19,063 nucleotides of DNA from Oscillospiraceae bacterium (GCA_902794945.1 CADBJA010000019.1:1-19063), one strand, 5' to 3'; positions 2,354 through 18,562 are shown, counted from the first letter of the stretch. Notes: generated from the sequence alone by a model not told the origin. Program-made: numbers and translations.

Positions 2354-4015
2354 TTAAAAACTGAGATTTCTTAAAATCATACCGAGTCCGGATTTTACTT
2401 GCGTATTCTCACGAATGCCTTCCACATATTTTTTTCCCTTTTCGGCAGACACTTCATTGATAGCGGCATCTTTAATTAAGTCTTCACTCTTATGTTTTGC
2501 CTCAATAAGCATTGCCACTTCCGCAAATGTTTCATCATCACTTAAACCGCAAACGGTTTTCCCTTTTTTGGCTTTCGGATTGGTTAACAGTTCTGCAACC
2601 GGTCTGTTTTGAATGTTGGCAACAGCCATATCTTTTACCAAAGTAGAATCTTCATCCTTATACATAGCGGCACTATCTTTGGAAACATTCTCGGTAACAA
2701 GTTTATGGAACTGCTTTTCATCTTTCGCTTTGGCAATCTTTTCGACCGTTTTTAACGCTTTTTCTTTGGTAACGGAATCATTGACCTGCACATAGAAATA
2801 GCGGAAAGAAACGACTTCAAAGTTATCCGGATTTTCTTTATAAATCTTTTCTAACTGCTCTTTTGTGACATCTTTTAACATCACGCTCTTGTAATAAGAA
2901 TTGACATAAGCCGTTAATTCAAGGTATTCGGCAAAATCTTTTTCACTGATTTTCAAGCCATACATAGACTTCATATAATCTTCAAAAGACTGATTTGCCT
3001 GCTCGGCATAAGAATTTACATTTTTGATAGCATCCGTAACGGATTTTTCATCTTTCTCGGTCATTTCATAACCGGCTTTTTTACCCTCGTTGTAAATGCC
3101 GTAGTACAGTTTTAATGCATCTACGGTTTGGGATTTCAAGAAATCATCCCAAGTTTTATAATCTTCACTATTTTCATAGGTTTGTTTGGAAGGCTTTTCA
3201 TCAATATTAAAGCCGGAAGAAGTGTAATTTGCCGCATTCTCTATATAATAAACGGCTTTATATACATTCATCGGTACGGAGGTACCGTCCACCTTCACAA
3301 CGCTCTTATTGCCTGCAAAGAACAAAATGGCACACCAAATCGCAATCGCTAAAACCACACCCAAGCAGGCAAAGCCGACTTTTTTAAGCACCTTTTTCTT
3401 CTTTAAATGCTTTTGAATATCCTTTTCTTTATAAGCATCCAACACTTCGGTTTCAATGTGTATTTTTTCGCCGCACTGCGGGCAAACGATATTCTCATCA
3501 TCATCAATATCATCTGCCGAAAAATGCACAACCGCTTCACAAGCACCGCAATCGACAATGTAAGAGCCGCCTTTTTCATCTTCACTCCCATCATTTGATT
3601 TATCGACCAAATAATAATCGAGCGCCTCTTGATTAATTTCGATACTTTCATTACAATTCGGGCAAATGAGGTTACCCTCTTCATCTAAATCTTCTAACTC
3701 AAAATACACTTTTGTAGCGCAACTTTCACAATCAGCAGCATATTTTGCAAGCGTGATTTCTTTTTCAACTGCCTCTTCGTCGTTCACTTCATCACCCGGC
3801 GCATCGTTCACATCATTTAAAAAGGATTCTAATTCCTTTTCGCTTTCAACACCGTCAATCTCCGTATAAGTGTTTTCTTTCTTTTCGGATTCTGCTTCGG
3901 GTGTTGTTTCGGCAACAGTATCGGTTGCCTGCGTTTCATCGGATGCGGACACACTGTTTAAAGAAACTTCCGGTTCGAGTTCATTCTCGAGATTCTCTTT
4001 TTTATTTTCGTCCAT
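2354..4015 (-). CDS. Membrane protein with a cytoplasmic double zinc ribbon and an extracytoplasmic SurA_N-like chaperone domain and no parvulin domain.
   Basis: The N-terminal region is acidic. It carries two CxxC...CPxC zinc-ribbon motifs (CESCATKV...CPNCN and CGACEAVV...CPQCGEK). A TM helix follows (VGFACLGVVLAIAIWCAILFFAG), then an external domain similar to the neighbouring PrsA-like protein (VVKVDGTSVPMNVYKAVYYIENAANYT). An AAGGGG RBS sits 7 nt upstream. Confidence 0.6.
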   Translation of the reverse strand: MDENKKENLENELEPEVSLNSVSASDETQATDTVAETTPEAESEKKENTYTEIDGVESEKELESFLNDVNDAPGDEVNDEEAVEKEITLAKYAADCESCATKVYFELEDLDEEGNLICPNCNESIEINQEALDYYLVDKSNDGSEDEKGGSYIVDCGACEAVVHFSADDIDDDENIVCPQCGEKIHIETEVLDAYKEKDIQKHLKKKKVLKKVGFACLGVVLAIAIWCAILFFAGNKSVVKVDGTSVPMNVYKAVYYIENAANYTSSGFNIDEKPSKQTYENSEDYKTWDDFLKSQTVDALKLYYGIYNEGKKAGYEMTEKDEKSVTDAIKNVNSYAEQANQSFEDYMKSMYGLKISEKDFAEYLELTAYVNSYYKSVMLKDVTKEQLEKIYKENPDNFEVVSFRYFYVQVNDSVTKEKALKTVEKIAKAKDEKQFHKLVTENVSKDSAAMYKDEDSTLVKDMAVANIQNRPVAELLTNPKAKKGKTVCGLSDDETFAEVAMLIEAKHKSEDLIKDAAINEVSAEKGKKYVEGIRENTQVKSGLGMILRNLSF

Positions 4016-4095: not shown

Positions 4096-4191
4096 AAAAC
4101 AAAAATTAACAGTTCGGTAAAAACAAAAATTAACAGTTCGGTAAAAACAAAAATTAACAGTTCGGTAAAAACAAAAATTAACAGTTCGGTA
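4096..4191. repeat. Four perfect tandem copies of a 24-bp unit, aaaacaaaaattaacagttcggta.
   Basis: Copies occupy 4096-4119, 4120-4143, 4144-4167 and 4168-4191. Each contains ACAGTTCGG. Confidence 0.95.
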
Positions 4192-4198
4192 AAATTTA

Positions 4199-4855: not shown

Positions 4856-4931
<76 letters not shown>

Positions 4932-6599: not shown

Positions 6600-7310
6600 A
6601 CAAAATAATGATTTCGTTTTCTACTTCATTCTTTTTCAGGCGAATAATATCCCCCTCCTTATGCCTTGTGCATTAATAATCGGGTGCGGGTGTCCCGCCC
6701 TCAATTAGCACTGAAAGTGCGGCTTCATTAGGCGACTTGTCGCCGACTTCATTATTCATTAGCGAAGGCCTTACAACCGGGAGGGCACAGAGAGCCTCCC
6801 CTACAGGTTGCTGTGCTTTTTCTTTCGGGCGGATAGTATCCGCCCCTACTTGTGACTTATGCCTTGTGCCTTAAATTGACTACCCCTCTGTCACTTCGTG
6901 ACATCTCCCCTAAATTTGACAATCCCTCCACCGCTTACGCGGTCCCCCTCCTAACCGGAGCCCGTACCCTCTGTCACTTCGTGACATCTCCCTGCACTGC
7001 AGGGAGTCACCCTTTACACAAGGGAGGCAAATCGGGGCGATGTAAAGCGGTTAAGATGAAAACATCATATTTACATTCATCAAATATTAGAGCGAAGCGA
7101 AACGGGTGCGGGTGTTCCCGCCCTTCATATTGGCGAAGCCAATACTTCATATGCCGTTGGCATACTTCATAGCGAAGCTACTTCATTTGCGCACCGCGCA
7201 AACTTCATTCAGCGGTCTTTGACCGCTGCTGTCCCGCCCTCAATTATTCACTATTCACTCTTCATCCTTCATTAAAAATGGTAGAGGTCTTACGACCTCT
7301 ACCGATTTTT
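6600..7310. repeat. A 700-bp GC-rich noncoding hairpin array, the largest member of a repeat family dispersed through this window.
   Basis: Dozens of short palindromes are present. Five tandem units (7123-7225) have the form ACTTCAT plus a variable 9-20 nt palindrome. A 26-bp direct repeat (ccctctgtcacttcgtgacatctccc) occurs at 6884-6909 and 6967-6992. A 14-bp repeat (cttatgccttgtgc) occurs at 6658 and 6856. GGGTGCGGGTGT(T)CCCGCCC occurs at 6681 and 7105. A module ending in a terminator (7225-7312) is homologous to 44-127. Confidence 0.6.
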
Positions 7311-7312
7311 TT
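7280..7312 (-). terminator. Terminator of the TPM-domain gene.
   Basis: A 10-bp stem (ggtagaggtc 7280-7289 pairing with gacctctacc 7294-7303) has a ttac loop. A5 and T7 flank it, and it overlaps the stop codon at 7311-7313. Confidence 0.6.
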
Positions 7313-8108
7313 AAAATCCTCCGCCTCCGTGCGAAGCACCGGATGACGATGAGTGTGTGGAAGAACCGCCGCTTGATTTGCTTTGAATTGCGGTTCTCGT
7401 TACCGATGTGGTTCGGAAATTATCGTAAGCACCGGTCACATTGAGTGAACCGTTTACCAAATAATCGGTTGCATTTGCTTTAAACCGAACCGGTTGATAC
7501 TTCTTTTTTATGATGCTACGCGCAATAAAGCCCGCAATAATACCGACAACCAGCGCAATACCGATACCGAGAGCATAATTTCTCTTTTTAGGCGCACTGT
7601 TAACATCTAACGGTGTGCCGGCATCGGCTTGAGCAACCAATTCCGATGATACATCGGCAAATTTGAGAAATGCCTCTTCCCATGCGCCGCTATCCATCAA
7701 ATCTACAAGTTGTGAGCCGACATACTGAATACCGTAATCGGTAAAACATTTAATGCCGTAGCCCCTTGTTGAAATCCAACGCTCGGTTGTATCGCCGTTA
7801 TCATACACAAGCAGTAATACACCGCTTCTGTCACCCTGTCTGCCGACACCGTAACCGTTGTAATCATAATAATCATCGGCATAGTCCTGCTTGCTTTTGC
7901 CTTGTAAATCGGTTGTTGTAACAATCACAAAGTCCATATTGGTATCATCACTCAGTTTTTGCAGTTTGACTTCTACCGTTTGCACCTCTTCGGCAGTTAA
8001 GAGCCCTGCTTCATCAACCACAAGCGGTTTTTCGGCTGCAAAAGAAGGGATGATACAAAGTGATAAAACGAGTAATAAAACAACACTAAACGAAATTATT
8101 TTTTTCAT
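7311..8108 (-). CDS. TPM-domain (YgcG/UPF0603, YdjH-like) membrane protein.
   Basis: A signal peptide (MKKIISFSVVLLLVLSLCIIPSFA) is followed by the TPM core (LVVDEAGLLTAEEVQ...MDFVIVTT), one TM helix and a Gly/Ser-rich tail ending in GGGGF. The start is placed at the ATG at 8108, preceded by AAGGAGG with a 9-nt spacer. This trims 13 codons from the tracked ORF. Confidence 0.8.
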   Translation of the reverse strand: MKKIISFSVVLLLVLSLCIIPSFAAEKPLVVDEAGLLTAEEVQTVEVKLQKLSDDTNMDFVIVTTTDLQGKSKQDYADDYYDYNGYGVGRQGDRSGVLLLVYDNGDTTERWISTRGYGIKCFTDYGIQYVGSQLVDLMDSGAWEEAFLKFADVSSELVAQADAGTPLDVNSAPKKRNYALGIGIALVVGIIAGFIARSIIKKKYQPVRFKANATDYLVNGSLNVTGAYDNFRTTSVTRTAIQSKSSGGSSTHSSSSGASHGGGGF

Positions 8109-8122
8109 ATTCATCCACCTCC

Positions 8123-9229
8123 TTATATAATGCCTAAGAGCATACATACGGCAAATGCCAAGGCACCGGCACCGGCAGCAACGCCGGCAAATAAGGCTGC
8201 AAGTTTGCCTTTATCAATCGGCAAATTGCCCACAAATTTACCGGTTTGCCCGTTCATGGCAAAGGTATACTTTTCGCCTTTATAATCGGTGTTTAAAATC
8301 CATACCGGGTACAAAGCGTATTTCGATACACCGTTAATCAGTTGTACGGAACTGAAACGCGGTGTCACGGTGGCATAGCCGTGCACGGTATCGCGCAGGG
8401 TATCTTCCGCCGAATGTTTAATGCGTTCATTCGCTCTCGGGATACTCTCTTCCATACCGACATCATATTTATCGGCAAGGTAGCCTGCAAGATAGGCGGT
8501 TTGGAAATCCACAGCATCCGCAAAATTAAACGGTTCAATGGATTCCATCAATTCATCCGGCATTTTGGTAGAACCGTCCACCGGGATGTTAGCAAAACTC
8601 ATATTGCCCTGACGGTAAATATCGTAAAAACTCGTTTCGGTATATTCATACTTACTGTCACGCCAAGTTCTCACCTGTGTACCTTCATACTGTACGGAAG
8701 CATTGATATTGGAATCAAACAGCCAAAACGGCACATAAATACCCTTGATTTCTTCTAAGCGATTTTCGCTTTTAAAGGCTTTGGGGGCAAACTTTTTATT
8801 GCTCGTATATTCTTTTAATTTCTCTTTTGCCTGTTTTTTATCGAGTTTAAACGGAATGACAAAATTCGGCTTTAATACACCGGATAATCTGCCGCTTAAA
8901 ACCGTATTATTACCGCAATACGGGCAGGTAGTTGCCGCCGTGTTTTCATCCGCCGCAATCTCGCCGCCGCAGGATTTGCAGACAAACACATTCATACCGG
9001 TATCATCCCACTGTTCATTTTGGGAAGAACCGTTCCAATTAAATTCATCCTCCGTCGGCATTTCGGGAGGCACATCACCCTGTTGCGTGTTTAACACATC
9101 ATCCTTTTGTTGCAGTTCGCTCACATCAAATGTACTGTCGCAAAAAGGGCATTTCATTTTTTGTGTTGCACTGTCAAACTCTAAAGTGCCGCCGCACGCA
9201 GGGCATTTATAATCTAAATTAACAGCCAT
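8123..9229 (-). CDS. Double zinc-ribbon protein with a C-terminal TM anchor (YdjG-like).
   Basis: Two CPxCGG...CPxC ribbons are present (CPACGGTLEF...CPFCDS and CKSCGGEI...CPYCGN). A roughly 200-aa domain of unknown function follows, then a C-terminal hydrophobic helix (LAALFAGVAAGAGALAFAVCMLLGII). An AAAGGAGA RBS is present. The stop abuts the RBS of the TPM gene. Confidence 0.6.
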   Translation of the reverse strand: MAVNLDYKCPACGGTLEFDSATQKMKCPFCDSTFDVSELQQKDDVLNTQQGDVPPEMPTEDEFNWNGSSQNEQWDDTGMNVFVCKSCGGEIAADENTAATTCPYCGNNTVLSGRLSGVLKPNFVIPFKLDKKQAKEKLKEYTSNKKFAPKAFKSENRLEEIKGIYVPFWLFDSNINASVQYEGTQVRTWRDSKYEYTETSFYDIYRQGNMSFANIPVDGSTKMPDELMESIEPFNFADAVDFQTAYLAGYLADKYDVGMEESIPRANERIKHSAEDTLRDTVHGYATVTPRFSSVQLINGVSKYALYPVWILNTDYKGEKYTFAMNGQTGKFVGNLPIDKGKLAALFAGVAAGAGALAFAVCMLLGII

Positions 9230-9258: not shown

Positions 9259-10278
9259 TTATTGTTTGGGTGTGCCGCAATTTTGGCAGAAGTTTGTGGT
9301 ATTCATACTGCCGCAATTCGGACAAGTCCACTGTGCAGGTGCCTGCGGTTGCACCGGTTGTTGTGCATAGCCGCCTTGAGTCGGTTGTTGGTAACCACCC
9401 TGAACGGGTTGCTGCTGATAGCCACCCTGCAGGGGTTGCTGCTGTGCGTAGCCGCCTTGCATAGGTTGTTGCTGCTGATAGCCGCCCTGCATAGGTTGCT
9501 GCTGTGCGTAACCTCCTTGCATCGGCTGTTGCTGTGCATAACCGCCTTGCATCGGTTGTTGTTGCTGATAGCCACCTTGCATAGGTTGTTGATAGCCGTT
9601 ATTCATTTGGGTATAGCCGCCTTGCATCTGTCCGTTCATAGCGCCCATACCCATGGCAGCACCCATCGCACCGCCCATAGCGGCGCCGCCGCCAAAGGTT
9701 TGCACAATTTCATTTGCCATTTGTTCTAAGCGCCTGTACTCATCCGTATAGCGGGAATCGGGTCTGCCGAAAGAATCGGTCAAATCAAATTTGATTTCAC
9801 TGAAATACGGGCTGTTAACACCGATATAGACTTCAAATTCATAACTGCAATCGTACTGCGGCGGGCTATACGGACGCTCATTGCCTTGAGAATCGGTCAT
9901 AAAGCGTTCCGTTTTATCTTCATCAATCCTGTAATTGGCATTCGTTACCTGTGTAAAGTCGATTAAATCGGCATTTTCGGCACGGTAATCACTCTTTCTG
10001 CTCACGCAGAATTTGCGCTGATTATCATCAATATAAATTTTGGTGCCGTGACCGTAAACCCTTGTAGGATTAAAGAAGTTAATGTTTTGCTTATTCTGCT
10101 CTCTGTAAGCGAGTTGTTGTTGAATATCTGCCACGGTAGAGCGCTTTCTCTCACTGAATAAGGGAGAAAGTTTTTTGTTACAATCGGAACAAATCGTTCC
10201 GTCTTCTACTTTTCTTGCGCCGAGCAAACCTACTTTTTTGCCGCAAATGGCACATTCTTTTTTATCAAAAAGTCCCAT
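9259..10278 (-). CDS. DUF4428-like N-terminal zinc-ribbon protein with a Q/G/Y-rich decapeptide repeat region and a C-terminal zinc ribbon.
   Basis: From the ATG at 10278 (GGAGG upstream; an alternative start lies 3 nt earlier) the protein begins MGLFDKKECAICGKK...DGTICSDC. A Met/Gly/Ala-rich stretch follows. There are about ten PMQGGY(A/Q)QQQ repeats. The C-terminus reads WTCPNCG...FCQNCG. Confidence 0.65.
   Translation of the reverse strand: MGLFDKKECAICGKKVGLLGARKVEDGTICSDCNKKLSPLFSERKRSTVADIQQQLAYREQNKQNINFFNPTRVYGHGTKIYIDDNQRKFCVSRKSDYRAENADLIDFTQVTNANYRIDEDKTERFMTDSQGNERPYSPPQYDCSYEFEVYIGVNSPYFSEIKFDLTDSFGRPDSRYTDEYRRLEQMANEIVQTFGGGAAMGGAMGAAMGMGAMNGQMQGGYTQMNNGYQQPMQGGYQQQQPMQGGYAQQQPMQGGYAQQQPMQGGYQQQQPMQGGYAQQQPLQGGYQQQPVQGGYQQPTQGGYAQQPVQPQAPAQWTCPNCGSMNTTNFCQNCGTPKQ
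9320..9610. repeat. Imperfect tandem repeats of about 30 bp inside a CDS, encoding QGGYAQQQPM decapeptides.
   Basis: Units of the form cat(a/c)gg(t/c)tg(c/t)tgctg(t/c)gc(g/a)ta(g/a)cc(g/a)cc(t/c)tg recur about nine times. Confidence 0.8.
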
Positions 10279-10309
10279 CATTAACCTCCAAAAATAATAT
10301 AACACAAAG

Positions 10310-10332
10310 AAGGGTGCGGATAGGCACACCCT
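10310..10332 (-). terminator. Weak intra-operon hairpin, a possible attenuator.
   Basis: A perfect 7-bp stem (aagggtg pairing with caccctt) has an 8-nt loop. On the minus strand it is followed by a weak CUUUGUGUU tract between the SPFH and DUF4428 genes. Confidence 0.3.
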
Positions 10333-10341
10333 TCCCTATTT

Positions 10342-11697
10342 TTATTGAATATCGTTATTATCAAACGGGTCGCCGCACTCGGGGCAGAACTTAGGCGGGT
10401 TGTGCGGGTCGGCAGGAGTCCAACCGCATTTATCACATCTGAAAAGCGGGGCGCCTGCCGGCTTCGGTTTGCCGCAGTTTTGGCAGAATTTGCCTTGGTT
10501 GACGGCACCGCAATCACAAGTCCAACCGCCCGCTGCTGCCGGTTCCGGCTTCGGTTTGCCGCAATTCGGGCAGAATTTGCCGGTTGCCTGTGTACCGCAA
10601 GCGCAAGTCCACGCACCCTGTGCCGGTGCCGCAGGTTGCTGCGCCTGTTGCACGGGTTGTTGCGGTTGTTGTGCCTGTTGCTGTTGCCCCATAGCAAACA
10701 GATTTTGTGCATTCATGCCGCCCATACCGCCGGCATTCATCGCCATACCCATACCGATAAAGCCGTTCATGGCGCCGCCTTCGTTGGCAGCCGCGGCACG
10801 CATCGCATCTGCCTGTGCGCCAACGAGCGTTGCACCTGCCATGGTGGGGTCACGCATGATAGCCGTGCGCTGTGCCTGCTTAATCAGTTCTTGGTCTTCT
10901 TCCGGCAATGTAATCGGGTTAAGGGCGATGGAAACAACGGATAAACCGCGCAGTTGTGACCATTTTGCAGTTAACGCCTCATTCATGGCACCCTCTAACT
11001 CGGTAGAGTGTGTTACGATTTGGTTAGGACGAAGTTCCAACTCACTGAGTTTACCGAATGCCGGTTGCAATGCGCTGATAAATTCGGTTTTGAGTTGATT
11101 GTCAATCTCTTCTCTGCCGTAAGCCTGCTCCACATTACCGCAAACATTGGTATAGAAAAGGAGCGGGTCGGTGATTTTGTAAGAATACACACCGCTGCAG
11201 CGAATAGAAACATCAATGTCTAAGCCGATATTTCTGTCAACCACTCTAAAGGGAATGGGATTGGGTGTACCGAACTTATTGTCAATCAATTCTTTGGTGT
11301 TGAAATAGTAAACACGCTGGTCTTTAGCGGTATCACCGCCAAAGGTGAAACGCTTACCGATGGTTTTAAAGGTGTTTTTGATGCTCTCACCGAGAGAACC
11401 TGCAAACACGCTCGGCTCTGTGGAAGTATCATATGTAAACTCACCGGGTTCCGCACAAACTTCAACAATCTTACCCTGCTCAACAATAATCATACACTGA
11501 CCGTCTGCCACAGCGATAAGCGAGCCGTTTGTGATAATGTTATCGTTTCCCTTGGTGTTGGAAGAACGAGAACCGGTGCGCTTTTGCCCTTTCACGACAA
11601 GCACATCTTTTTCAAGTGAATCACAATAAAAATACTCTTTCCACTGGTCTGCCATAGTGCCGCCTAATGCGCCGACACCTGCTTTAATAAGTCCCAT
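10342..11697 (-). CDS. SPFH/Band_7_1-family protein (YdjI-like, annotated elsewhere as 'virion core protein') with three C-terminal zinc ribbons.
   Basis: The ATG at 11697 is preceded by AAAGGA with a 9-nt spacer. The tracked ORF begins at an upstream TTG. The product begins MGLIKAGVGALGG...KEYFYCDSL...VVKGQ, typical of Band_7_1. Next come a Met/Gly-rich segment (GMGMAMNAGGMGGMNAQ) and a Q-rich linker. Three ribbons follow: WTCACG...FCPNCG, WTCDCG...FCQNCG and FRCDKCG...FCPECG. Confidence 0.8.
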   Translation of the reverse strand: MGLIKAGVGALGGTMADQWKEYFYCDSLEKDVLVVKGQKRTGSRSSNTKGNDNIITNGSLIAVADGQCMIIVEQGKIVEVCAEPGEFTYDTSTEPSVFAGSLGESIKNTFKTIGKRFTFGGDTAKDQRVYYFNTKELIDNKFGTPNPIPFRVVDRNIGLDIDVSIRCSGVYSYKITDPLLFYTNVCGNVEQAYGREEIDNQLKTEFISALQPAFGKLSELELRPNQIVTHSTELEGAMNEALTAKWSQLRGLSVVSIALNPITLPEEDQELIKQAQRTAIMRDPTMAGATLVGAQADAMRAAAANEGGAMNGFIGMGMAMNAGGMGGMNAQNLFAMGQQQQAQQPQQPVQQAQQPAAPAQGAWTCACGTQATGKFCPNCGKPKPEPAAAGGWTCDCGAVNQGKFCQNCGKPKPAGAPLFRCDKCGWTPADPHNPPKFCPECGDPFDNNDIQ

Positions 11698-11803
11698 ACT
11701 ATCAAATCCTTTCAAAGTGATTTATTTTTTATTGTAAGTGAGCACGCCGGCTCAGCCGACACATTTCACATACTGTTAATTTTAGTAAAACGCAGCATTT
11801 AAC

Positions 11804-11851
11804 ATTCCAAATTCTACATTCTACATTTTACATTCTACATTTTACATTCCA
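11804..11851. repeat. Seven tandem heptamers of ATT(C/T)TAC, which read AATGTA(A/G) on the minus strand.
   Basis: The run attccaa attctac attctac attttac attctac attttac attccat sits between the stop of the 11852 gene and the promoter region of the SPFH cluster. Confidence 0.8.
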
Positions 11852-12349
11852 TTAAGCCCACGGGTTTTGACTTTCGGGTTCACGAATACCGGCAAGCAAA
11901 AACTGATCCCACAAATACCACTTACCGTCTTTCGCGAGCCTTAAAACAATTCCTCGCGGACTGTCGGCACCGCCGGATTTTAAAAACAACTTGGCATACC
12001 CCTCATTTTGGTAGGAATACGGGTTTTCACTCACGGTGAGGGTGAAAGGTTCGGCAGGCGTATAATCGTTTGCCGGGGTTGCGCCGTCAAAATACGAGCG
12101 CGGCACATAATCTTTATCACGAAAACGGTCACGAATGAACTGTTTTTCCATTTCACTCATCGGTCGCGGTCCGCGCAAAACGGAAAGCATTTGCAAACTC
12201 AAATCCGCATTTTTCGGATACACGCAAAACGCAAGTACCGTTAATGCCGCGGTATCAAACGGAGTTGCCATTGCCGCTTGCGGTAATGCACAAAATGCCT
12301 CCACCGATGACGGAACGGATGAAAATGTGATTTTTTTAACCTGATCCAT
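11852..12349 (-). CDS. Hypothetical protein of 165 aa.
   Basis: It is a clean ORF with a GGGGAGG RBS 6 nt upstream. It has no signal peptide and no TM segment, and I recognise no family. Confidence 0.5.
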   Translation of the reverse strand: MDQVKKITFSSVPSSVEAFCALPQAAMATPFDTAALTVLAFCVYPKNADLSLQMLSVLRGPRPMSEMEKQFIRDRFRDKDYVPRSYFDGATPANDYTPAEPFTLTVSENPYSYQNEGYAKLFLKSGGADSPRGIVLRLAKDGKWYLWDQFLLAGIREPESQNPWA

Positions 12350-12456
12350 ATATACCTCCCCTATGCTGTATTACTCTCATTATAACATATAATAATAAAA
12401 AAAATTATTGTCATTAATGCTAATTTTTTTATTCTATTTTTGTATTAAAAATCAAA

Positions 12457-12484
12457 AATCCCGGTTTCAGGTAAAACCGGGATT
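12457..12484 (-). terminator. Rho-independent terminator of the partner-switching operon.
   Basis: A perfect 11-bp stem (aatcccggttt pairing with aaaccgggatt) has a caggta loop. On the minus strand it is followed by UUUGAUUUUU, just after the stop codon at 12491. Confidence 0.7.
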
Positions 12485-12490
12485 CTAATA

Positions 12491-14524
12491 TTAGTCAATT
12501 TTCTTTTTGAGCGTAAGAATATTTTTATCATCCTTGCGATCGTAAGCAACATCATCCATAATCTTTTTGGTCATAAAGATGCCAAGCCCGCCGATTTGCC
12601 TTTCATCTGCCGGCAATGTAATATCGGGGTCTTTTTTGGCAAGAGGGTTATACGCAACGCCGCTATCCTCAAAAATAAGGGTGAGCACATCGTTTTCAAA
12701 ATGTGCCTTCACATCGGCATACCCGCTCCCCGGCTGATATGCATAATTTGCGATATTGACAAATATTTCTTCTACAGCCAAAGCGATTTGCATTTGTACT
12801 TTGAGCGAAACCTGCTTTTGTTCAAGGTAAGCGGATACAAAATCCGTCACCTCATCCAACTTATCATTATTCGCTTCAATGTGAAGAGTTTTTTCCATTT
12901 CCTGTGCTCCGTAATACTCGAGGCAAAGCATGGTAATATCATCAAATTGCGGCGCTTCGCCAACAAAATCATCCACCGTTTGCTTCACATGTTCTAAAAT
13001 TTGTTTAGGGGGTTGCTCACGCACTTCGTGCAGGGCGCGCAACATCCGCTCACAACCGAACAAGGTATCATTTTTATCGGTTGCTTCGGGTACGCCGTCG
13101 GTATATAAGAACAGTTTATCCCCTTTTTGCAGTTGAATAACGGATTGCGTGTAATGCACGCCTTCCATCGCGCCCACAACCAAACCGTGCTTTTGAATAC
13201 AAAGGTTGAAAGTATCACCTTTTCTGTAAATCACGGGGTCATCGTGCCCGGCGTTTACGCAAGTGATTTTACCGGTAGACAGTTCCAAAATACCAAACCA
13301 AATGGTCACAAACATATCTGCAGAATTATTAGAGCAAATTCTGTCGTTAACAAACTCAATAATCTCAGCCGGTGTACCGCCTGTGGTGGTGCATTTGATT
13401 TTAATCAACATTTTTGTCACCATCATAAACAGTGCCGCCGGAATCCCTTTGCCGGATACATCTGCCATCACCAGCGCAATGTGGTCATCATCAACCGCAA
13501 AGAAATCGTAAAAATCACCGCCGACTTCTTTTGCCGGTGTCATCGAGGCATAAATATCAAATTCCGTACGCTCGGGGTAAGCCGGAAAATCGCTCGGCAC
13601 GGCGCCCGCCTGAATTTTTGCCGCTACATCAAGTTCGGTGTCGATGCGCTGCTTTTCACTCAAAGCCGCCGTCATATCATCAAAATACTTTAAAGTATCC
13701 AACTCCATTTGAGAGATGGAAGTTGCAAGCGTTTTAATCTCATTAATTTTGCTGATATTTTGAAGCATATCGGTGTTGCTGATTTCGTTTTCACGAGCAA
13801 ACCTGTCTGCCTCTTGAGAAATTTTGTGAATCGGGTTTATAAACTGGCGTCTTAAATAGTTAATTGCCATATAAGAAACCAAAATAACCGTTAATAATAC
13901 CGATAGTGTTACCTGGGTGATGTACGGGGCTCTGCCTTCGCTGAGCACCGTCATCGGGCGCTGCACGCACATCAGTGCCGTGACATCGCCTTTTGCATTA
14001 TTAATGGCAAGAATAGAAGTGATGTGCGGCGGTGCACCGTCCAAATCTTTGGTGCGCATCACTTTTTCTCTATCGGTCTTTTTTAAATAGACCTGCTCGT
14101 ATTTTTGCGCATATTCTTCGTTTGTGGTATTTCTTCTGTAGCCGATTTCCCAAGGGGTATAGCCGGTATCTTTATTCACCGAGTTAAATACGGATGTGAA
14201 ATGCTTATAATCTTTATCGGGTTTAATGACATAAATGATGGAGACATCCATTTTATCACACAGTGTATCCATCCACTGTTGGGACTGGTCGTGCTCTTCC
14301 ATAAACTGCCCGTTCAAATAAGCATCAATATGATCTCCGTTTACAAGCGTGGCTGCGGTTTGCGCAATACCGTAGGTGACCTCGTCATACTCTTTTTCAA
14401 GAGACTTTGAAAAAGAAATATAGCCGATAATGGTCACAATCCAACTGAAAACAACCAACAATATAATCAGCGAACTGATAATATTGAAAGATAAACTGTT
14501 TCGCAGTGATTTAATAAATCTCAT
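12491..14524 (-). CDS. Transmembrane sensor fused to a PP2C (SpoIIE/RsbU-type) phosphatase and an RsbW-like GHKL anti-sigma kinase domain.
   Basis: TM1 (IISSLIILLVVFSWIVTIIGYI) is followed by a roughly 155-aa external domain, then TM2 (VTLSVLLTVILVSYMAINYL) and a HAMP-like linker. The PP2C motifs are GGDFYDF, DVSGKG and YTDGV. The C-terminal domain is HATPase_c-like, with the N-box AVEEIFVNIANYAY and the G-box GGLGIFMTKKIMD. Confidence 0.8.
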   Translation of the reverse strand: MRFIKSLRNSLSFNIISSLIILLVVFSWIVTIIGYISFSKSLEKEYDEVTYGIAQTAATLVNGDHIDAYLNGQFMEEHDQSQQWMDTLCDKMDVSIIYVIKPDKDYKHFTSVFNSVNKDTGYTPWEIGYRRNTTNEEYAQKYEQVYLKKTDREKVMRTKDLDGAPPHITSILAINNAKGDVTALMCVQRPMTVLSEGRAPYITQVTLSVLLTVILVSYMAINYLRRQFINPIHKISQEADRFARENEISNTDMLQNISKINEIKTLATSISQMELDTLKYFDDMTAALSEKQRIDTELDVAAKIQAGAVPSDFPAYPERTEFDIYASMTPAKEVGGDFYDFFAVDDDHIALVMADVSGKGIPAALFMMVTKMLIKIKCTTTGGTPAEIIEFVNDRICSNNSADMFVTIWFGILELSTGKITCVNAGHDDPVIYRKGDTFNLCIQKHGLVVGAMEGVHYTQSVIQLQKGDKLFLYTDGVPEATDKNDTLFGCERMLRALHEVREQPPKQILEHVKQTVDDFVGEAPQFDDITMLCLEYYGAQEMEKTLHIEANNDKLDEVTDFVSAYLEQKQVSLKVQMQIALAVEEIFVNIANYAYQPGSGYADVKAHFENDVLTLIFEDSGVAYNPLAKKDPDITLPADERQIGGLGIFMTKKIMDDVAYDRKDDKNILTLKKKID

Positions 14525-14528
14525 ACCA

Positions 14529-14825
14529 TTAACCTATGTTAATAATGTCGGAAAAGCCGGTAATTTCGAACACTTCCATTACATCGGCGCAAGTGTTAAT
14601 CACCTTCATACTCCCCTGTTGATTCATTAATTTTTGTGCTTTTAAGAACACTCTTAAACCGGCAGAAGAAGTGTAGGGCATTTCAGCCAAATCAAACACC
14701 AATTCTTCAATACCGTCGGTATTTTCAAAGAGTGCTTCTTCTAACTGCGGGGCAGAGTTTGTATCGAGTCTGCCAACAATTTTAATTAAGAGTTTGCTGC
14801 CGTCCTGTTCCTTAATAATATCCAT
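14529..14825 (-). CDS. STAS-domain anti-sigma-factor antagonist (SpoIIAA/RsbV-like).
   Basis: The 98-aa product carries the conserved motif TSSAGLRVFL with a phosphorylatable Ser. It lies 4 nt upstream of the sensor gene. Confidence 0.85.
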   Translation of the reverse strand: MDIIKEQDGSKLLIKIVGRLDTNSAPQLEEALFENTDGIEELVFDLAEMPYTSSAGLRVFLKAQKLMNQQGSMKVINTCADVMEVFEITGFSDIINIG

Positions 14826-14837
14826 AATGTACCTCCA

Positions 14838-16007
14838 TTAATAATAAAGTGAATCCACTTTATCAATATTTGTTTTTAAATAGTTTTGGCAGTATTCTAC
14901 CAATTTTCTGCCCATTTCGGTCTCGAAACCGATTCTTTCGGCACTTCTGCGAAGCAAACGCGTGTAGCCGATTAAAGCGGCTTTGCGTTTTACATCGTTA
15001 ATAAAGGCTTCATCTTTATCGTCAAAATAATACTTTAAAGTTGCCTCCCAAAAACGCTCGGCATACTCATACTTAATCCCCAAAAAGCCGTGCACATTTT
15101 CTCTGTCCACACAACTGAAACCAAGGTAAGCAAGGAAAATCGCCGTAAATTCGAAAATCGGGTGACCTTGTGCGAGCGTATCCATATCAATAAGCAGGTT
15201 TTCACCGTTTTGCCTCATAATGTTTTTGACATGGTAATCGCCGTGAAGCATATTGTCGGAATCCGGAATTTCGCTCATCATTTTAAACAGTTTTTCGTAT
15301 GTAGCACTGTCTAAATACGGGCGGCAACGCTCTACCCAAGAGAGTGCCTCTTCCTTTTTATCCGGCAAGGTGCCTTTTTGTAAGAGAATAGCGTGTATGG
15401 TTTTGAGTATCTCTACACTTTCTTTAGCAAGTTGTTCGATGTTATCGGGGTCCTTATTGACCAGTTTTGCAAAACTCTCAGCCTGTAAGAGTTCAAACAC
15501 GGAGCCATATAAATCACCGACTTTAACCACATCATACGGAATGGCGGTCGGCACACCCATAACAAACGCTTTACGGGCAAGTTCACGCTCGTTGTGAATT
15601 TCATCTAACGAGTCGGGGTTTTTATACACTTTAATAACCGTGTCATCACCGATACGGTACACCAAACCGTTGGCGCCCTCACCGATGATTTCACAGCCCT
15701 CCACGCTCACTTCGCGATAGGCTTTGGTAATATCCATCATTTCGGTAAAGCCGGTCATATCAAAAATCTCATACACATCGCTGGATGCATTGATGATTTT
15801 GGTTGCGGGATTGGATTTTTTTAACCTCAAAACCACACGCAAGCCGGCACTGGAGATATATTCGAGTTTTTGCATATCAAGAACCAATGAATCGGTTCTT
15901 TCAAAGCCGATGGCGTTAATCTCTTTTTCAATTTCCGGTGCATTGCCGGAATCGATTCTACCCTCTAAATAAATGGTATAAGTTTGTTTTTCTTTTTTAA
16001 ACTCCAT
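14838..16007 (-). CDS. Fusion of an N-terminal STAS domain to a C-terminal protein-kinase-like (APH/CotS/choline-kinase fold) domain.
   Basis: The STAS part carries ISSAGLRVVL. The kinase-like part has a Gly-rich loop IGEGANGLVY, the lysine motif VIKVYK, a catalytic loop HGDYHVKN and a metal-binding LIDMD motif. Confidence 0.75.
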   Translation of the reverse strand: MEFKKEKQTYTIYLEGRIDSGNAPEIEKEINAIGFERTDSLVLDMQKLEYISSAGLRVVLRLKKSNPATKIINASSDVYEIFDMTGFTEMMDITKAYREVSVEGCEIIGEGANGLVYRIGDDTVIKVYKNPDSLDEIHNERELARKAFVMGVPTAIPYDVVKVGDLYGSVFELLQAESFAKLVNKDPDNIEQLAKESVEILKTIHAILLQKGTLPDKKEEALSWVERCRPYLDSATYEKLFKMMSEIPDSDNMLHGDYHVKNIMRQNGENLLIDMDTLAQGHPIFEFTAIFLAYLGFSCVDRENVHGFLGIKYEYAERFWEATLKYYFDDKDEAFINDVKRKAALIGYTRLLRRSAERIGFETEMGRKLVEYCQNYLKTNIDKVDSLYY

Positions 16008-16099: not shown

Positions 16100-16440
16100 T
16101 GGCAACGCCGTAATATCATTGTGCGCAACACACATCGTTTGCCACAGGCAACATTGTTTTGTGTTCGCGGTTTTTGCTCACGCAAAAAAACAAAGTTGTG
16201 CCTTGCGGACACAAACGTAAAGACTCACTAATGAAATATTTGGCTCTGCCAAATATGAAATAACGGCAACTCCATTATGAAGTATTGTAGTTATTCACTA
16301 CAATATGAAGCAAAATAAATTCCTATATATGCGAAGCATACTTCATAGCGACTGCTATTTCATATTCCGCAGGAATATTTCACAAATTCCAAAGGAATTT
16401 ATTTCATTGAAAAAACCACTTCATACGAAGTGGTTTTTTC
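16100..16440. repeat. A hairpin array from the same family as 6600-7310.
   Basis: ATGAAAT / ACTTCAT / ATTTCAT motifs alternate with small palindromes: atatttggc...gccaaatat, atgcgaagcat, atattccgcaggaatat and aaattccaaaggaattt. The run atgcgaagcatacttcatagcga nearly repeats the sequence at 7150-7180. Confidence 0.5.
16411..16440. terminator. Bidirectional terminator abutting the tRNA-Cys fragment.
   Basis: The sequence is aaaaaacc ACTTC atacg AAGTGG tttttt, a hairpin with flanking A and T runs. Confidence 0.5.
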
Positions 16441-16627: not shown

Positions 16628-17023
16628 TTAAATATTATCATTTAAATACCGGTCAATAGCATTAACAACAGTTGCTGCATTTTCAAACGCCTCTTGCGCA
16701 TCAATCAACTCAAACTTTGCTGCAATGTCATAATCACTTTGCCCTCGTGCATCGACCAATCGACCAAGCATCTTTGAAAGAGAAGCATCAAATCTTCCGT
16801 TTTTAATGTAATGCTGTCTAAAATAGGCAATTACACCGGAATGCTTTTTAGAATCGTAGCCATCTAACAATTCTAATGCCTTGAGGGAATGAAACGCTGC
16901 ATAATATGAACGATTAATTGCGCCATTATAATCCCCCACTTCAATATAAATGGGAATAAACTTCAAGATTTCTTTCGCATTCGATAATTCTAATTGAGAG
17001 AGTTCACTCACACTATTATGCAA
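16628..17023 (-). CDS. HEPN-domain protein, the putative toxin partner of the upstream nucleotidyltransferase.
   Basis: It has the R-x6-H motif (NRSYYAAFH) and is about 130 aa. It overlaps the 3' end of the NTase gene by 8 nt. Confidence 0.8.
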   Translation of the reverse strand: MHNSVSELSQLELSNAKEILKFIPIYIEVGDYNGAINRSYYAAFHSLKALELLDGYDSKKHSGVIAYFRQHYIKNGRFDASLSKMLGRLVDARGQSDYDIAAKFELIDAQEAFENAATVVNAIDRYLNDNI

Positions 17024-18555: not shown

Positions 18556-18562
18556 ATATAAA

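What the first reader, a model, noticed from the sequence alone, without database searches (positions are those of the whole stretch)
9320..10760. Q/G/Y-rich decapeptide repeats and Met/Gly-rich segments shared by two adjacent proteins, each ending in a WTC..CG zinc ribbon
The DUF4428-like protein carries about ten tandem PMQGGY(A/Q)QQQ repeats. At the DNA level these are imperfect 30-bp repeats at 9320-9610. The SPFH protein carries GMGMAMNAGGMGGMNAQN plus a QQQQAQQPQQPVQQAQQP linker. Both proteins share one C-terminal architecture: a globular domain, then an M/G/A-rich segment, then a Q-rich low-complexity region, then WTCxxCG...FCxNCG ribbons. The QGGY composition resembles prion-like or FUS-type low-complexity domains. 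Those domains drive multivalent assembly. That fits a scaffolding or condensate-forming role next to an SPFH (flotillin-like) protein. The DNA repeats are also a plausible source of length polymorphism between strains.
Basis: seen in the sequence. Interest (0 to 1): 0.6.

Follow-up and report, generated by a model that had tools for sequence, protein, structure and literature searches.

The report
Prion-like repeat linker beside SPFH gene
A gut or rumen Clostridia protein carries a real, strain-variable run of yeast-prion-like PMQGGYQQQQ repeats between a folded head and a zinc ribbon, and its gene lies inside a version of the known SamGHI/YdjGHI membrane-stress operon; this is a moderately interesting variant of known things, and no function was tested.

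Summary
The minus-strand gene 10278..9262 encodes a soluble 339-aa DUF4428 protein. Its parts are an N-terminal Zn ribbon, a PH-like domain, a Met/Gly/Ala segment, ten Tyr-centred Q/G/Y/M/P units (five exact decapeptides) and a C-terminal ribbon. Residues 196-316 have no charged residue and reach 35 Q+N per 80 aa.

The units differ mostly at synonymous sites, so the peptide is under selection. Copy number varies between strains in whole 10-aa steps.

The region resembles the Sup35 repeat (PQGGYQQYN) more than FUS, because it has no [G/S]Y[G/S] motif and no Ser.

The adjacent SPFH protein has a Band_7_1 domain, a low-complexity region and zinc ribbons. That architecture is already published for B. 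subtilis YdjI/SamI, and the next two genes look like SamG and SamH. The SPFH Met/Gly stretch is a conserved sequence motif, not merely a composition bias.

The repeat region is clade-specific. 41 of 72 complete species-level orthologs have it (29 of the 31 at 55% identity or more). 31 have short or charged linkers instead, some of them in the same operon context.

The most likely role is a flexible, weakly self-associating tether in a membrane-peripheral adaptor. Condensate or prion behaviour is untested.

The parts
11852..12349 (-). DUF6935 gene (165 aa, no predicted TM). It is the first gene of the unit and the most frequent neighbour of DUF4428-family genes.
   Evidence: Pfam PF22043, 195.8 bits. 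It is a neighbour in 31 of 42 loci that have at least 5 kb on both sides. No paper and no PDB relative were found.
10342..11697 (-). SamI/YdjI-like soluble SPFH protein (451 aa; coordinates include the stop codon). It has a Band_7_1 domain, a Met/Gly motif, a Q/P/A linker and three zinc ribbons.
   Evidence: Pfam PF13421, 69.6 bits. No TM by hydropathy scan. Homologs are 84-100% identical and start MGLIKAG. The architecture is described for YdjI/SamI.
10687..10785 (-). Conserved Met/Gly-rich motif NEGGAMNGFIGMGMAMNAGGMGGMNAQNLFAMG (SPFH residues 305-337).
   Evidence: Many columns are invariant across 31 aligned homologs: N305, G308, A309, M310, F313, G315, M316, G317, M318, A319, M320, G323. 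Tails are listed.
10612..10686 (-). Q/P/A linker of the SPFH protein (residues 338-362). It has no aromatic residues and varies in length between homologs.
10345..10611 (-). Three C-terminal zinc ribbons of the SPFH protein: 10558-10611, 10471-10524 and the CDKCGW..PPKFCPECGDPF type at 10345-10443.
   Evidence: Coordinates. Only generic Zn-ribbon Pfam hits, all below the gathering scores. Ribbon number varies from 1 to 4 among homologs. Ribbon residues reach pLDDT 60-77 in an otherwise poor model.
10304..10339 (-). Stem-loop between the SPFH stop and the DUF4428 start (15 pairs, about -22 kcal/mol). It is terminator-like or attenuator-like.
   Evidence: It is kept at the same place in four relatives with different stem sequences: L004, L005, L001 and L086.
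9259..10278 (-). DUF4428-family protein gene (339 aa plus stop). It is soluble, and its parts are a Zn ribbon, a PH-like domain, the low-complexity repeats and a Zn ribbon.
   Evidence: Pfam PF14471, 60.7 bits against a cut-off of 27.8. Identical proteins are P0001 and P0242. No TM.
10117..10257 (-). DUF4428 N-terminal CxxC..CxxC zinc-ribbon domain (residues 8-54).
   Evidence: C9, C12, C30 and C33 are invariant.
9709..10077 (-). PH-like beta-sandwich with a capping C-terminal helix (residues about 68-190).
9631..9693 (-). Met/Gly/Ala-rich segment GGGAAMGGAMGAAMGMGAMNG (residues 196-216).
   Evidence: Comparable G/M/A/N-rich stretches start the tails of orthologs.
9331..9630 (-). Ten Tyr-centred Q/G/Y/M/P units (residues 217-316). 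The five exact decapeptides PMQGGY(Q/A)QQQ are at 9436-9585.
   Evidence: Between those five units, 43 codon differences are synonymous and 6 are nonsynonymous.
9262..9330 (-). C-terminal zinc ribbon WTCPNCGSMNTTNFCQNCGTPKQ (residues 317-339).
   Evidence: It is kept in all 72 complete orthologs, which have one or two ribbons each.
8123..9229 (-). SamG/YdjG-like protein: two N-terminal zinc ribbons, a central domain and a C-terminal TM helix at residues 350-368.
   Evidence: Zn-ribbon Pfam hits at residues 6-37 and 82-108. TM. The architecture matches the description of YdjG in PMC11237479.
7311..8147 (-). SamH/YdjH-like TPM-domain membrane protein with a Ser/Gly-rich tail ending GGGGF. It overlaps the preceding gene by 25 nt.
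   Evidence: Pfam PF04536, 87.2 bits. TM helices at 17-35 and 191-209. Published description.
12455..12486 (-). Terminator-like hairpin after the upstream SpoIIE-HATPase gene. It marks the upstream boundary of the five-gene unit.
7280..7303 (-). Terminator-like hairpin after the TPM gene. It marks the downstream boundary of the unit.

Best explanation
**What it is (shown)**
- The repeats encode an uncharged low-complexity region of about 120 residues. It is probably disordered, though no disorder prediction was run.
- Its composition is Q 33%, G 23%, A 10%, M 10%, P 9% and Y 8%, with a Tyr about every 10 residues.
- It links a folded head (DUF4428 zinc ribbon plus PH-like domain) to a C-terminal zinc ribbon in a soluble protein.
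- The gene lies in a five-gene unit bounded by terminator-like hairpins: DUF6935, SamI-like SPFH protein, the DUF4428 protein, a SamG-like tail-anchored zinc-ribbon protein and a SamH-like TPM membrane protein.
- This is a Clostridial variant of the B. subtilis samGHI (ydjGHI) membrane-stress module with two extra genes.
- The SPFH protein's low-complexity region plus zinc ribbons is the published SamI architecture.

**How it most likely works (inferred)**
- Both soluble proteins end in related ribbons, which most plausibly dock them to the same membrane-bound partner or surface.
- The repeat region then acts as a long flexible tether. Its regularly spaced aromatic residues in a Q/G/P/M spacer would give weak multivalent self-association. 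That would help cluster the adaptor at the foci that SPFH assemblies form.

**How it evolves (shown)**
- Selection acts on composition and on the peptide unit, not on exact length.
- Arrays expand and contract by slippage or unequal recombination.
- The unit has been replaced many times in different lineages.
For: **Repeat anatomy and composition**
-.

**Selection on the peptide**
- Among the five decapeptide units, 43 codon differences are synonymous and 6 are nonsynonymous. Nucleotide identity between units is 0.80.

**Conservation of the region**
- Composition is kept while the unit changes. Examples are PMQGGYQQQQ, GFPQQGYPQQ, PYGQPQQ, NFNQQPQQPYGQQ, MNNNMGYQQP and PQQQYGA.
- This holds across 41 species-level orthologs. 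Their regions are 73-182 aa long, at most 4% charged, with a median of 11% aromatic residues.

**Strain polymorphism in whole units**
- One species has variants of 312, 329, 330, 339 and 340 aa. Its sister species has 305-353 aa, which is 4-9 units.
- Two independent samples give the identical 8-unit allele.

**The folded head**
- A preprint treats DUF4428 as an N-terminal globular alternative to a TM or PH domain.

**Operon context**
- Pfam assignments, hydropathy scan, hairpins.
- Identical gene order in relatives.
- In 42 species loci with full flanks, neighbours are DUF6935 in 31, SPFH in 22, SamG-like in 22 and TPM in 19.

**Published SamI/SamG/SamH biology**
- SamI is soluble. It is recruited to the membrane by SamG and SamH, forms foci, and carries a low-complexity region plus a zinc finger.

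**Shared ribbons**
- 13-14 of 22 residues are identical between the two proteins.
- More distant DUF4428 orthologs end in CDKCGW..PPKFCPMCGDP. That is the same module as the last ribbon of the SPFH protein.
Against: - No experiment or predictor of self-association, disorder or phase behaviour was run. PLAAC, PAPA and CamSol are not available here.
- 31 of 72 complete orthologs have short or charged linkers without repeats. Some are in the same gene context, for example L075 and L082-L085. The region is therefore dispensable for the family's core role.
- Only about half of the full-flank loci have SPFH, SamG-like or TPM genes within 7 kb, and 7 have none of the four neighbours. The link to the SPFH module is frequent but not obligatory.
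- No pspA is present in this 19-kb window.
- SamI, SamG and SamH identity rests on domain architecture. No direct alignment to the B. subtilis proteins was possible.
- What the ribbons bind is unknown.
Confidence: 0.5

Rival explanations
1. **Passive spacer.** The region is only an entropic linker that sets the distance between head and ribbon. Its Q/G/Y/P/M composition is a by-product of slippage-prone CAA/CAG-rich DNA and relaxed constraint, with no self-association.
For: - Length and unit vary freely between strains and species.
- Many orthologs make do with linkers of about 40 aa and a quite different, charged composition, in the same gene context.
Against: - Differences between units are overwhelmingly synonymous, 43 against 6. 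That argues for selection on the peptide.
- Lineages with unrelated units converge on the same features: almost no charge, a median of 11% aromatic residues (all but two of the 41 between 4% and 16%), and Q/N-rich.
- A neutral spacer would be expected to pick up charged residues, as the short-linker orthologs do.
Confidence: 0.3
2. **Environment-sensitive condensation switch.** The region condenses reversibly in response to a change in cytosolic pH or redox state, for example through oxidation of its Met residues. It would thereby couple membrane stress to assembly at the SPFH complex.
For: - One Met sits in almost every unit (PMQGGY), and the region is 10% Met.
- Many orthologs have 10-22% Met, and some have pure Met/Gly/Asn repeats with 27% Met, such as L070 and P0293.
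- The B. subtilis system responds to alkaline shock and membrane stress.
- From memory, the Sup35 prion domain and the yeast Pbp1 Met-rich domain are reported pH-dependent and redox-dependent condensation sensors.
Against: - Met is not universal. The GFPQQGYPQQ, PYGQPQQ and PQQQYGA lineages have 0-4% Met.
- There are no titratable residues in the region itself.
- Nothing was tested. The analogy rests on eukaryotic proteins recalled from memory.
Confidence: 0.08
3. **True amyloid or prion-forming domain.** The region would create a heritable conformational switch.
For: - The region meets the Q/N-richness rule, with 35 Q+N per 80 aa.
- The unit matches the Sup35 repeat core QGGYQQ.
- Bacterial prion-forming domains have been reported, for example C. 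botulinum Rho.
Against: - The region has 9% Pro and 23% Gly at regular intervals, which disfavours a stable cross-beta core.
- There is no N-rich nucleating stretch equivalent to Sup35 residues 1-40.
- It is frequently lost among orthologs.
- No assay was done.
Confidence: 0.05
4. **Structural cross-linking substrate.** The Gln and Tyr residues would be cross-linked, for example in a spore-coat-type matrix by transglutaminase or as dityrosine, and the protein would not be a cytoplasmic adaptor.
For: - The region is rich in Gln and Tyr.
- The upstream genes are SpoIIE-type and STAS partner-switching proteins.
- From memory, Q-rich GerQ is cross-linked in Bacillus spore coats.
Against: - Neighbour genes are membrane-stress-type (SPFH, TPM, SamG-like), not coat genes.
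- The Cys4 ribbons and the PH-like head fit a cytoplasmic adaptor.
- The SpoIIE domain here is fused to an HATPase_c_2 domain, which looks like an RsbU/RsbW-type arrangement, not the sporulation SpoIIE.
Confidence: 0.03
5. **Assembly or sequencing artefact** in a repetitive stretch.
For: - Short-read metagenome assemblers can collapse or expand tandem repeats.
- Some of the copy-number variants come from single contigs.
Against: - The identical 339-aa product is on 32 contigs from NCBI, JGI, Logan and ENA.
- The window's units are only 80% identical at the DNA level, so they are easy to assemble.
- The frame and the downstream ribbon are always intact.
- Two samples give the identical 8-unit allele in the sister species.
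Confidence: 0.01

Closest known systems
B. subtilis PspA-SamGHI (YdjGHI) membrane-stress module; SamI/YdjI SPFH protein
   Same: - A soluble Band_7_1 SPFH protein with a low-complexity region followed by C-terminal zinc ribbon(s).
- An adjacent gene for a protein with two N-terminal zinc ribbons and a TM helix (SamG-like).
- An adjacent gene for a TPM-domain membrane protein with a low-complexity Gly-rich tail (SamH-like).
- An internal hairpin that could set different expression levels within the operon.
- Sources.
   Different: - Gene order here is SPFH first and then the G-like and H-like genes. In B. subtilis it is pspA-G-H-I.
- No pspA lies within 19 kb.
- There are two extra genes, DUF6935 and the DUF4428 repeat protein.
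- The SPFH protein has three ribbons, and its homologs have 1-4.
- Orthology to the B. subtilis proteins was not tested by direct alignment.
[quoted passage not shown]
   Same: - Tandem 9-10-residue units with the core P(x)QGGYQQ.
- Q/N-rich and free of charge.
- A Gly-Gly-Tyr motif.
- Repeat number is variable.
- Sources.
   Different: - The host is bacterial and common descent is not plausible, so the resemblance is convergent.
- There is no N-rich nucleating segment.
- Met is present in every unit.
- The region sits between two folded zinc-binding modules, not at a protein terminus.
- No prion or amyloid behaviour has been shown.
FUS/FET-family low-complexity domains
   Same: An uncharged Q/G/Y-rich sequence with regularly spaced Tyr, and a zinc ribbon in the same protein.
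   Different: - No [G/S]Y[G/S] triplets and no Ser.
- The ribbon is a generic bacterial zinc ribbon. It scores 15 bits against Pfam Zn_ribbon_RanBP, where the cut-off is 27.
- There are no RNA-binding domains.
Bacterial candidate prion-like domains (e.g. C. botulinum Rho, SSB), as surveyed in PMC6400439
   Same: A Q/N-rich insertion that is sporadically conserved among orthologs and found in Clostridia.
   Different: - The host protein family is different (DUF4428/PH-like adaptor).
- The region is strongly periodic with aromatic residues.
- I found no paper that mentions this family's repeats. DUF4428 appears in only 3 papers, none about this.
DUF4428-containing N-termini of SNIPE-like nucleases (bioRxiv 10.1101/2025.11.03.685801)
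   Same: A DUF4428 domain used as an N-terminal globular module in proteins that lack a TM segment. There it is presented alongside PH domains.
   Different: The window protein has no nuclease domain. It matches no PADLOC defence model. The gene context is different.

Membership tests
SamI/YdjI-type SPFH protein | Band_7_1 (PF13421) SPFH domain | tested here: met
   69.6 bits against a cut-off of 24.
SamI/YdjI-type SPFH protein | No intrinsic membrane anchor | tested here: met
   No 19-aa window reaches Kyte-Doolittle 1.6; the maximum is 1.57. This is a simple hydropathy scan, not a dedicated predictor.
SamI/YdjI-type SPFH protein | Low-complexity region followed by C-terminal zinc finger or ribbon | tested here: met
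   Residues 305-362 are followed by three Cys4 ribbons. The feature is described.
SamI/YdjI-type SPFH protein | Encoded next to SamG-like (2 Zn ribbons plus TM) and SamH-like (TPM plus TM plus low-complexity tail) genes | tested here: met
   The gene order recurs in relatives.
SamI/YdjI-type SPFH protein | Linked pspA gene | tested here: not met
   No PspA/IM30 domain was found among the 16 window ORFs scanned against Pfam, which are essentially those of 100 aa or more that do not lie antisense within another gene. pspA may lie elsewhere in the genome.
SamI/YdjI-type SPFH protein | Sequence orthology to B. subtilis YdjI, and recruitment by SamG/SamH | not testable with these tools
DUF4428 (PF14471) | N-terminal CxxC..CxxC domain that matches the Pfam model above its gathering score | tested here: met
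   60.7 bits against 27.8, residues 8-54. The four Cys are invariant.
PH-like fold (central domain of the DUF4428 protein) | Seven-stranded beta-sandwich capped by a C-terminal helix and superposable on PH/PTB domains | tested here: inconclusive
Yeast-type Q/N-rich prion-like domain | At least 30 Q+N in an 80-residue window (Michelitsch-Weissman rule, recalled from memory) | tested here: met
   35 Q+N in residues 214-293. The SPFH protein reaches only 22.
Yeast-type Q/N-rich prion-like domain | Long stretch (60 aa or more) depleted of charged and aliphatic residues | tested here: met
   The region is 121 aa with no D/E/K/R and 3 I/L/V.
Yeast-type Q/N-rich prion-like domain | Positive PLAAC or PAPA score | not testable with these tools
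   The programs and their parameter tables are not available offline. I did not reconstruct them from memory.
Yeast-type Q/N-rich prion-like domain | Amyloid formation or self-propagation | not testable with these tools
   Needs experiments.
Sup35-type oligopeptide repeat | Tandem units matching PQGGYQQYN | tested here: met
   P.QGGY occurs 8 times, QGGY 9 times and QGGYQQ 4 times. The consensus comes from PMC3679450. The resemblance is in motif only, and homology is not implied.
FUS-type low-complexity domain | Multiple [G/S]Y[G/S] triplets in a Ser/Tyr/Gly/Gln-rich sequence | tested here: not met
   No [G/S]Y[G/S] triplet and no Ser in the region.
RanBP2-type zinc finger | W-x-C-x(2,4)-C-x3-N-x6-C-x2-C, matching Pfam PF00641 | tested here: not met
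   15 bits against a cut-off of 27, E=0.015. The second loop is x4 rather than x6. Generic Zn-ribbon models score higher.
Pentapeptide-repeat beta-helix (DotG/IcmE-like) | A(D/N)LXX-type pentapeptide units | tested here: not met
   The only PDB sequence hit was DotG. Its per-stretch E-values were 84-2600, and the match is driven by a 10-residue G-aromatic periodicity. No central Leu or Phe pattern is present.
Known anti-phage defence systems (PADLOC) | Match of any of the five proteins to a defence-system model | tested here: not met
   There were no hits, apart from weak zinc-ribbon-only matches of the SamG-like protein.

The most novel reading that the evidence does not exclude
The repeat region may be a tunable stress-responsive condensation module. 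It is a Sup35-like array that carries Met, placed on a PH-like/zinc-ribbon adaptor. It would reversibly cluster SamGHI-type SPFH membrane complexes when membrane damage changes cytosolic pH or redox state in anaerobic gut Clostridia. The natural 4-9-unit alleles would set the threshold. That would make it a bacterial counterpart of stress-sensing prion-like domains, linked to an ESCRT-III/SPFH membrane-repair pathway.
Probability: 0.1. Interest if true: 0.75.

Novelty: new variant of a known kind. Interest (0 to 1): 0.4.

Why it matters
- SamGHI/YdjGHI is a recently characterised SPFH membrane-stress module whose recruitment mechanism is still unclear.
- This locus shows that many rumen and gut Clostridia have an expanded version with two uncharacterised soluble partners, DUF6935 and a DUF4428/PH-like adaptor.
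- The adaptor and the SPFH protein carry related C-terminal ribbons. That points to the ribbons as a shared docking device, which can be tested by two-hybrid or pull-down experiments.
- The repeat region offers a natural allelic series. It includes 4-9 units within a species, unrelated units between species, and orthologs with no repeats. That series could show whether prion-like low-complexity sequence has a function in a bacterial membrane system.
- If the region is only a spacer, the finding is an ordinary example of slippage-driven low-complexity evolution.

Tried and rejected
1. **RanBP2-type zinc finger, as in FUS.** The isolated ribbons hit only generic Zn-ribbon Pfam models, all below their cut-offs. 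Zn_ribbon_RanBP scored 15 bits against a cut-off of 27. Rejected.
2. **PDB sequence search with the repeat region.** The only hit was the Legionella DotG/IcmE repeat region, with per-stretch E-values of 84-2600. This is a periodicity artefact.
4. **AlphaFold2 of the full SPFH protein,** run to see whether the Met/Gly motif is structured. Mean pLDDT was 41 from a shallow alignment of 77-91% identical sequences, so it was uninformative. Only the ribbons reached 60-77.
5. **afdb50 fold search.** The library was unavailable.
6. **NCBIfam.** No model matched the SPFH, DUF4428 or DUF6935 proteins.
7. **PADLOC.** No defence system matched.
8. **PDB sequence searches with the SPFH and DUF6935 proteins.** Nothing found.
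9. **Literature.** DUF6935 appears in no paper. DUF4428 appears in 3 papers, none about this protein type. A text search of a gut-microbiome prion-like protein survey (PMC12322145) found no mention of SPFH or zinc-ribbon proteins.
10. **A similar low-complexity-plus-ribbon cassette in other window proteins.** The 553-aa zinc-ribbon/TM protein and the PrsA-like PPIase have none.
11. **pspA in the window.** Absent.
12. **PLAAC and PAPA.** I did not reimplement them, because I could not reproduce their parameter tables reliably from memory.

Full report
**1. What is in the sequence**

All genes around the finding are on the minus strand.

Tandem Repeats Finder reports a 30-bp period at 9408-9591, with 6.1 copies, 79% matches and score 201. 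It also reports a 60-bp super-period with score 238.

The ORF 10329..9259 most likely starts at the ATG at 10278 (MGLFDKKECAICG). All homologs start there. The product is 339 aa and is laid out as follows:

| Residues | Feature |
|---|---|
| 8-54 | DUF4428 zinc ribbon (Pfam PF14471, 60.7 bits, cut-off 27.8) |
| to about 195 | globular region |
| 196-216 | GGGAAMGGAMGAAMGMGAMNG |
| 217-316 | ten Tyr-centred units: QMQGGYT, QMNNGYQQ, five exact PMQGGY(Q/A)QQQ, PLQGGYQQQ, PVQGGYQQ, PTQGGYAQQ plus PVQPQAPAQ |
| 317-339 | WTCPNCGSMNTTNFCQNCGTPKQ |

Residues 196-316 are 33% Q, 23% G, 10% A, 10% M, 9% P and 8% Y. They contain no D/E/K/R and three I/L/V. The globular part, by contrast, is 31% charged. 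The stretch without any charged residue runs 147 residues, 191-337.

That protein is 11697..10345, 451 aa, Band_7_1 at 69.6 bits. One correction applies. It has three ribbons, two of the WTCxCG..GKFCxNCG type and a terminal FRCDKCGW..PPKFCPECGDPFDNNDIQ. The ribbons of the two proteins share 13-14 of 22 residues.

**2. The array is real and selected at the peptide level**

Among the five exact decapeptide units, 43 of the 49 differing codon pairs are synonymous. The other six are the Q/A alternation at unit position 7. DNA identity between units is only 0.80.

The identical 339-aa protein (P0242) is recorded on 32 contigs from NCBI, JGI, Logan and ENA. An assembly artefact is therefore excluded for this allele.

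**3. Strain polymorphism**

- Within the 90%-identity cluster of the window's protein, lengths are 312, 329, 330, 339 and 340 aa.
- In the sister cluster (84% identity) they are 305, 313, 323, 325, 333, 335, 343 and 353 aa. That corresponds to 4-9 copies of PMQGGYQQQQ, and most changes are whole 10-aa units.
- In that sister species the DNA units are 0.93 identical, which points to a more recent expansion.
- Two independent samples give the same 8-unit allele (L086, L087) and another gives 5 units (L088).
- Alignment of the window against 89%- and 86%-identical loci (L004, L005) shows in-frame gains and losses of units, with flanks and ribbon intact.
- Caveat: some variants come from single short-read contigs.

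**4. Family view**

A profile of the N-terminal 191 residues finds 1431 representatives of 50%-identity clusters at E<=1e-3, and 510 at 1e-30. At least 565 species-level genomes hold a relative. Nearly all the records listed are titled as Clostridia (Ruminococcaceae, Oscillospiraceae, Acutalibacteraceae, Eubacterium-named MAGs), mostly from rumen or gut. A few metagenome bins carry other labels.

I classified 80 species loci with my own thresholds: a region of at least 60 aa, at most 5% charged, and Q+N at least 25% or Met above 20%.

- 41 have a low-complexity region. These are 73-182 aa long (median 107), at most 4% charged, with a median of 11% aromatic residues.
- 31 have short or charged linkers.
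- 8 are truncated by contig ends.
- Of the orthologs at 55% identity or more, 29 of 31 have the region. At 49-55% identity, 12 of 41 do.
- Among the best 150 cluster representatives, 29 have it, 89 do not, and 32 lack a ribbon or are truncated.

The repeat unit differs from lineage to lineage. Examples are PMQGGYQQQQ, GFPQQGYPQQ, PYGQPQQ, NFNQQPQQPYGQQ, MNNNMGYQQP, PQQQYGA, GGYPPQQ and PYQQPVQQ. Some variants are Met/Gly/Asn-only with 27% Met (L070, P0293). The shared features persist: almost no charge, Q/N-rich, and regularly spaced Tyr or Phe. This looks like repeated re-expansion under compositional selection.

It also shows that the region is not needed for whatever the family does at its core. 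The short-linker orthologs L075 and L082-L085 sit in the same gene neighbourhood.

**5. The rest of the protein**

An AlphaFold2 model of residues 1-191 has mean pLDDT 89. It shows the zinc ribbon, a long helix, and a beta-sandwich capped by a C-terminal helix.

- Foldseek against PDB gives nothing significant.
- A 2025 preprint lists DUF4428 next to PH domains as the N-terminal globular module of TM-less SNIPE homologs. That fits a membrane-proximal or partner-binding role.
- A hydropathy scan predicts no TM segment.

**6. Gene context**

The unit is DUF6935 (12349..11852), SPFH (11697..10342), DUF4428 (10278..9259), a protein with two zinc ribbons and a C-terminal TM helix (9229..8123), and a TPM-domain membrane protein with a Ser/Gly tail (8147..7311, overlapping by 25 nt).

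Terminator-like hairpins flank the unit at 12486..12455 and 7303..7280. A 15-pair stem-loop lies between the SPFH and DUF4428 genes at 10339..10304. That stem-loop is kept in relatives with different stem sequences.

The published description of the B. subtilis pspA-ydjGHI (samGHI) operon fits three of these genes.

- YdjG/SamG has two zinc ribbons, an NTF2-like domain and a TM helix.
- SamG and SamH recruit SamI to membrane foci, and SamI recruits PspA.

So the SPFH half of the finding is a known architecture. The new elements are the DUF6935 and DUF4428 genes, the gene order, and the absence of pspA from this window.

Gene order is identical in the closest relatives. In 42 species loci with at least 5 kb on both sides, tblastn finds these neighbours:

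| Neighbour | Loci out of 42 |
|---|---|
| DUF6935 | 31 |
| SPFH | 22 |
| SamG-like | 22 |
| TPM | 19 |
| none of the four | 7 |

The tightest partner of the DUF4428 protein is therefore DUF6935, and the SPFH module is a frequent but not constant neighbour.

**7. The SPFH tail**

Across 120 homologs at 84-100% identity, the segment NEGGAMNGFIGMGMAMNAGG..NAQNLFAMGQQQ is nearly invariant in sequence. It is followed by a Q/P/A linker of variable length with no aromatic residues, and then by one to four ribbons.

It reaches only 22 Q+N per 80 aa, so it is not prion-like by the Michelitsch-Weissman rule. An AlphaFold2 attempt on the full protein was too poor to say whether the Met/Gly motif is structured.

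More distant DUF4428 orthologs end in VCDKCGW..PPKFCPMCGDPINFNDMR. That is the same module as the last ribbon of the SPFH proteins. Two different soluble families thus carry the same C-terminal ribbon types. The simplest reading is a common docking target, but this is inference.

**8. Comparison with known low-complexity domains**

- **Sup35.** The unit P-M-QGGYQQ-QQ matches the core of the Sup35 oligopeptide repeat PQGGYQQYN (PMC3679450). QGGY occurs 9 times and QGGYQQ 4 times.
- **FUS.** The region has no [G/S]Y[G/S] triplet and no Ser, so 'FUS-type' is not apt.
- **Ribbon type.** The ribbon is a generic zinc ribbon, not a RanBP2 finger.
- **Bacterial precedent.** Sporadic conservation of Q/N-rich regions among bacterial orthologs is a known pattern (PMC6400439).
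- **Prior description.** I found no publication describing this family's repeats.

**9. Mechanism**

Shown:
- the anatomy of the repeats
- selection on the peptide
- the copy-number polymorphism
- the clade-limited distribution
- the gene context
- the shared ribbons.

Inferred: the protein is a membrane-peripheral adaptor, and the repeat region is a flexible tether. Its regularly spaced aromatic residues would give weak multivalent self-association, which would help clustering at SPFH foci.

The main rival is a passive spacer shaped by slippage. The synonymous-site pattern and the convergent composition across unrelated units argue against pure neutrality. The many orthologs without repeats argue that any such role is an add-on.

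Condensate, redox-switch and prion readings are compatible with the data but untested.

**10. Verdict**

| Item | Verdict |
|---|---|
| Observation | confirmed |
| Interpretation | partly supported |
| SPFH part | already described in the literature |
| DUF4428 repeat protein and the five-gene arrangement | undescribed variant of a known module, carrying a known class of sequence |
| Interest | moderate |

Noticed in passing
window 10304-10339 (-): A 15-pair stem-loop of about -22 kcal/mol lies between the SPFH stop and the DUF4428 start. It is kept at the same place in L004, L005, L001 and L086 with different stem sequences. It may be a partial terminator or an mRNA-processing site that sets the SPFH-to-downstream expression ratio. 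B. subtilis has an internal terminator after pspA.
   Followed up: partly
window 11796-11851: An imperfect 7/14/21-bp tandem repeat (minus strand: ATGTAGA/ATGTAAA-type units) fills the first part of the spacer between DUF6935 and SPFH, directly after the DUF6935 stop. Its function is unknown.
   Followed up: no
window 4096-4194: A perfect 24-bp tandem repeat with 4.1 copies (AAAACAAAAATTAACAGTTCGGTA) lies just upstream of the minus-strand 553-aa zinc-ribbon/TM protein gene (4015..2354). It could be a regulatory or binding-site array.
   Followed up: no
window 16335-16409 (-): Match to Rfam Gut-1 RNA (RF01706), 56 bits against a gathering score of 50.
   Followed up: no
window 4856-4931 and 18347-18806 (-): A tRNA-Met gene and a five-gene tRNA cluster (Cys, Gly, Phe, Asp, Val). 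The tRNA-Met gene explains a 99%-identical 115-bp match to the otherwise 73-77%-identical locus L001. A separate 97%-identical 73-bp match to L004 maps to about 18967-19039, outside the annotated tRNAs, and remains unexplained.
   Followed up: partly
window 12491-16007 (-): A STAS-APH fusion protein and a SpoIIE(PP2C)-HATPase_c_2 fusion protein lie directly upstream of the five-gene unit. The two closest species (L006, L007) keep this synteny, and L001/L007 also has a separate STAS protein. It looks like a partner-switching signalling module that might regulate the neighbouring operon.
   Followed up: partly
window 16628-17824 (-): HEPN and nucleotidyltransferase (MNT-like) genes, including a second nucleotidyltransferase copy. 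This looks like a toxin-antitoxin-like cassette.
   Followed up: no
L070 (residues about 191-330 of the ortholog); P0293: Some orthologs replace the Q/G/Y repeats with pure Met/Gly/Asn repeats (GMGMNGMPMNN, GMGSMNQMGMNN). These are about 27% Met with almost no Q or Y, which is an unusual composition.
   Followed up: partly
L085 3500-11800 (Yeguia hominis NSJ-40): The island is larger here. In order it holds an SPFH gene with four WxCxCG ribbons plus the terminal CDKCGW ribbon, a 186-aa TM protein, a 433-aa zinc-ribbon/TM protein, a DUF4428 protein with a short charged linker, a 193-aa lipoprotein-like ORF, a 250-aa second DUF4428-like protein (MANQCAICG..), a SamG-like gene, a TPM gene and DUF6935.
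   Followed up: partly
L068 (Bilifractor sp.), ortholog starting at 7001: The DUF4428/PH-like head continues into a 752-aa ORF. This is a longer fusion architecture with no ribbon directly after the linker.
   Followed up: no
P0295 (cluster representative): This ortholog's repeat unit is GGYPPQQ, about ten copies. It resembles the GYP-rich N-terminal tails of eukaryotic annexin A7/A11, a comparison made from memory. It is a further example of convergent aromatic/Pro/Gln repeats at this position.
   Followed up: no
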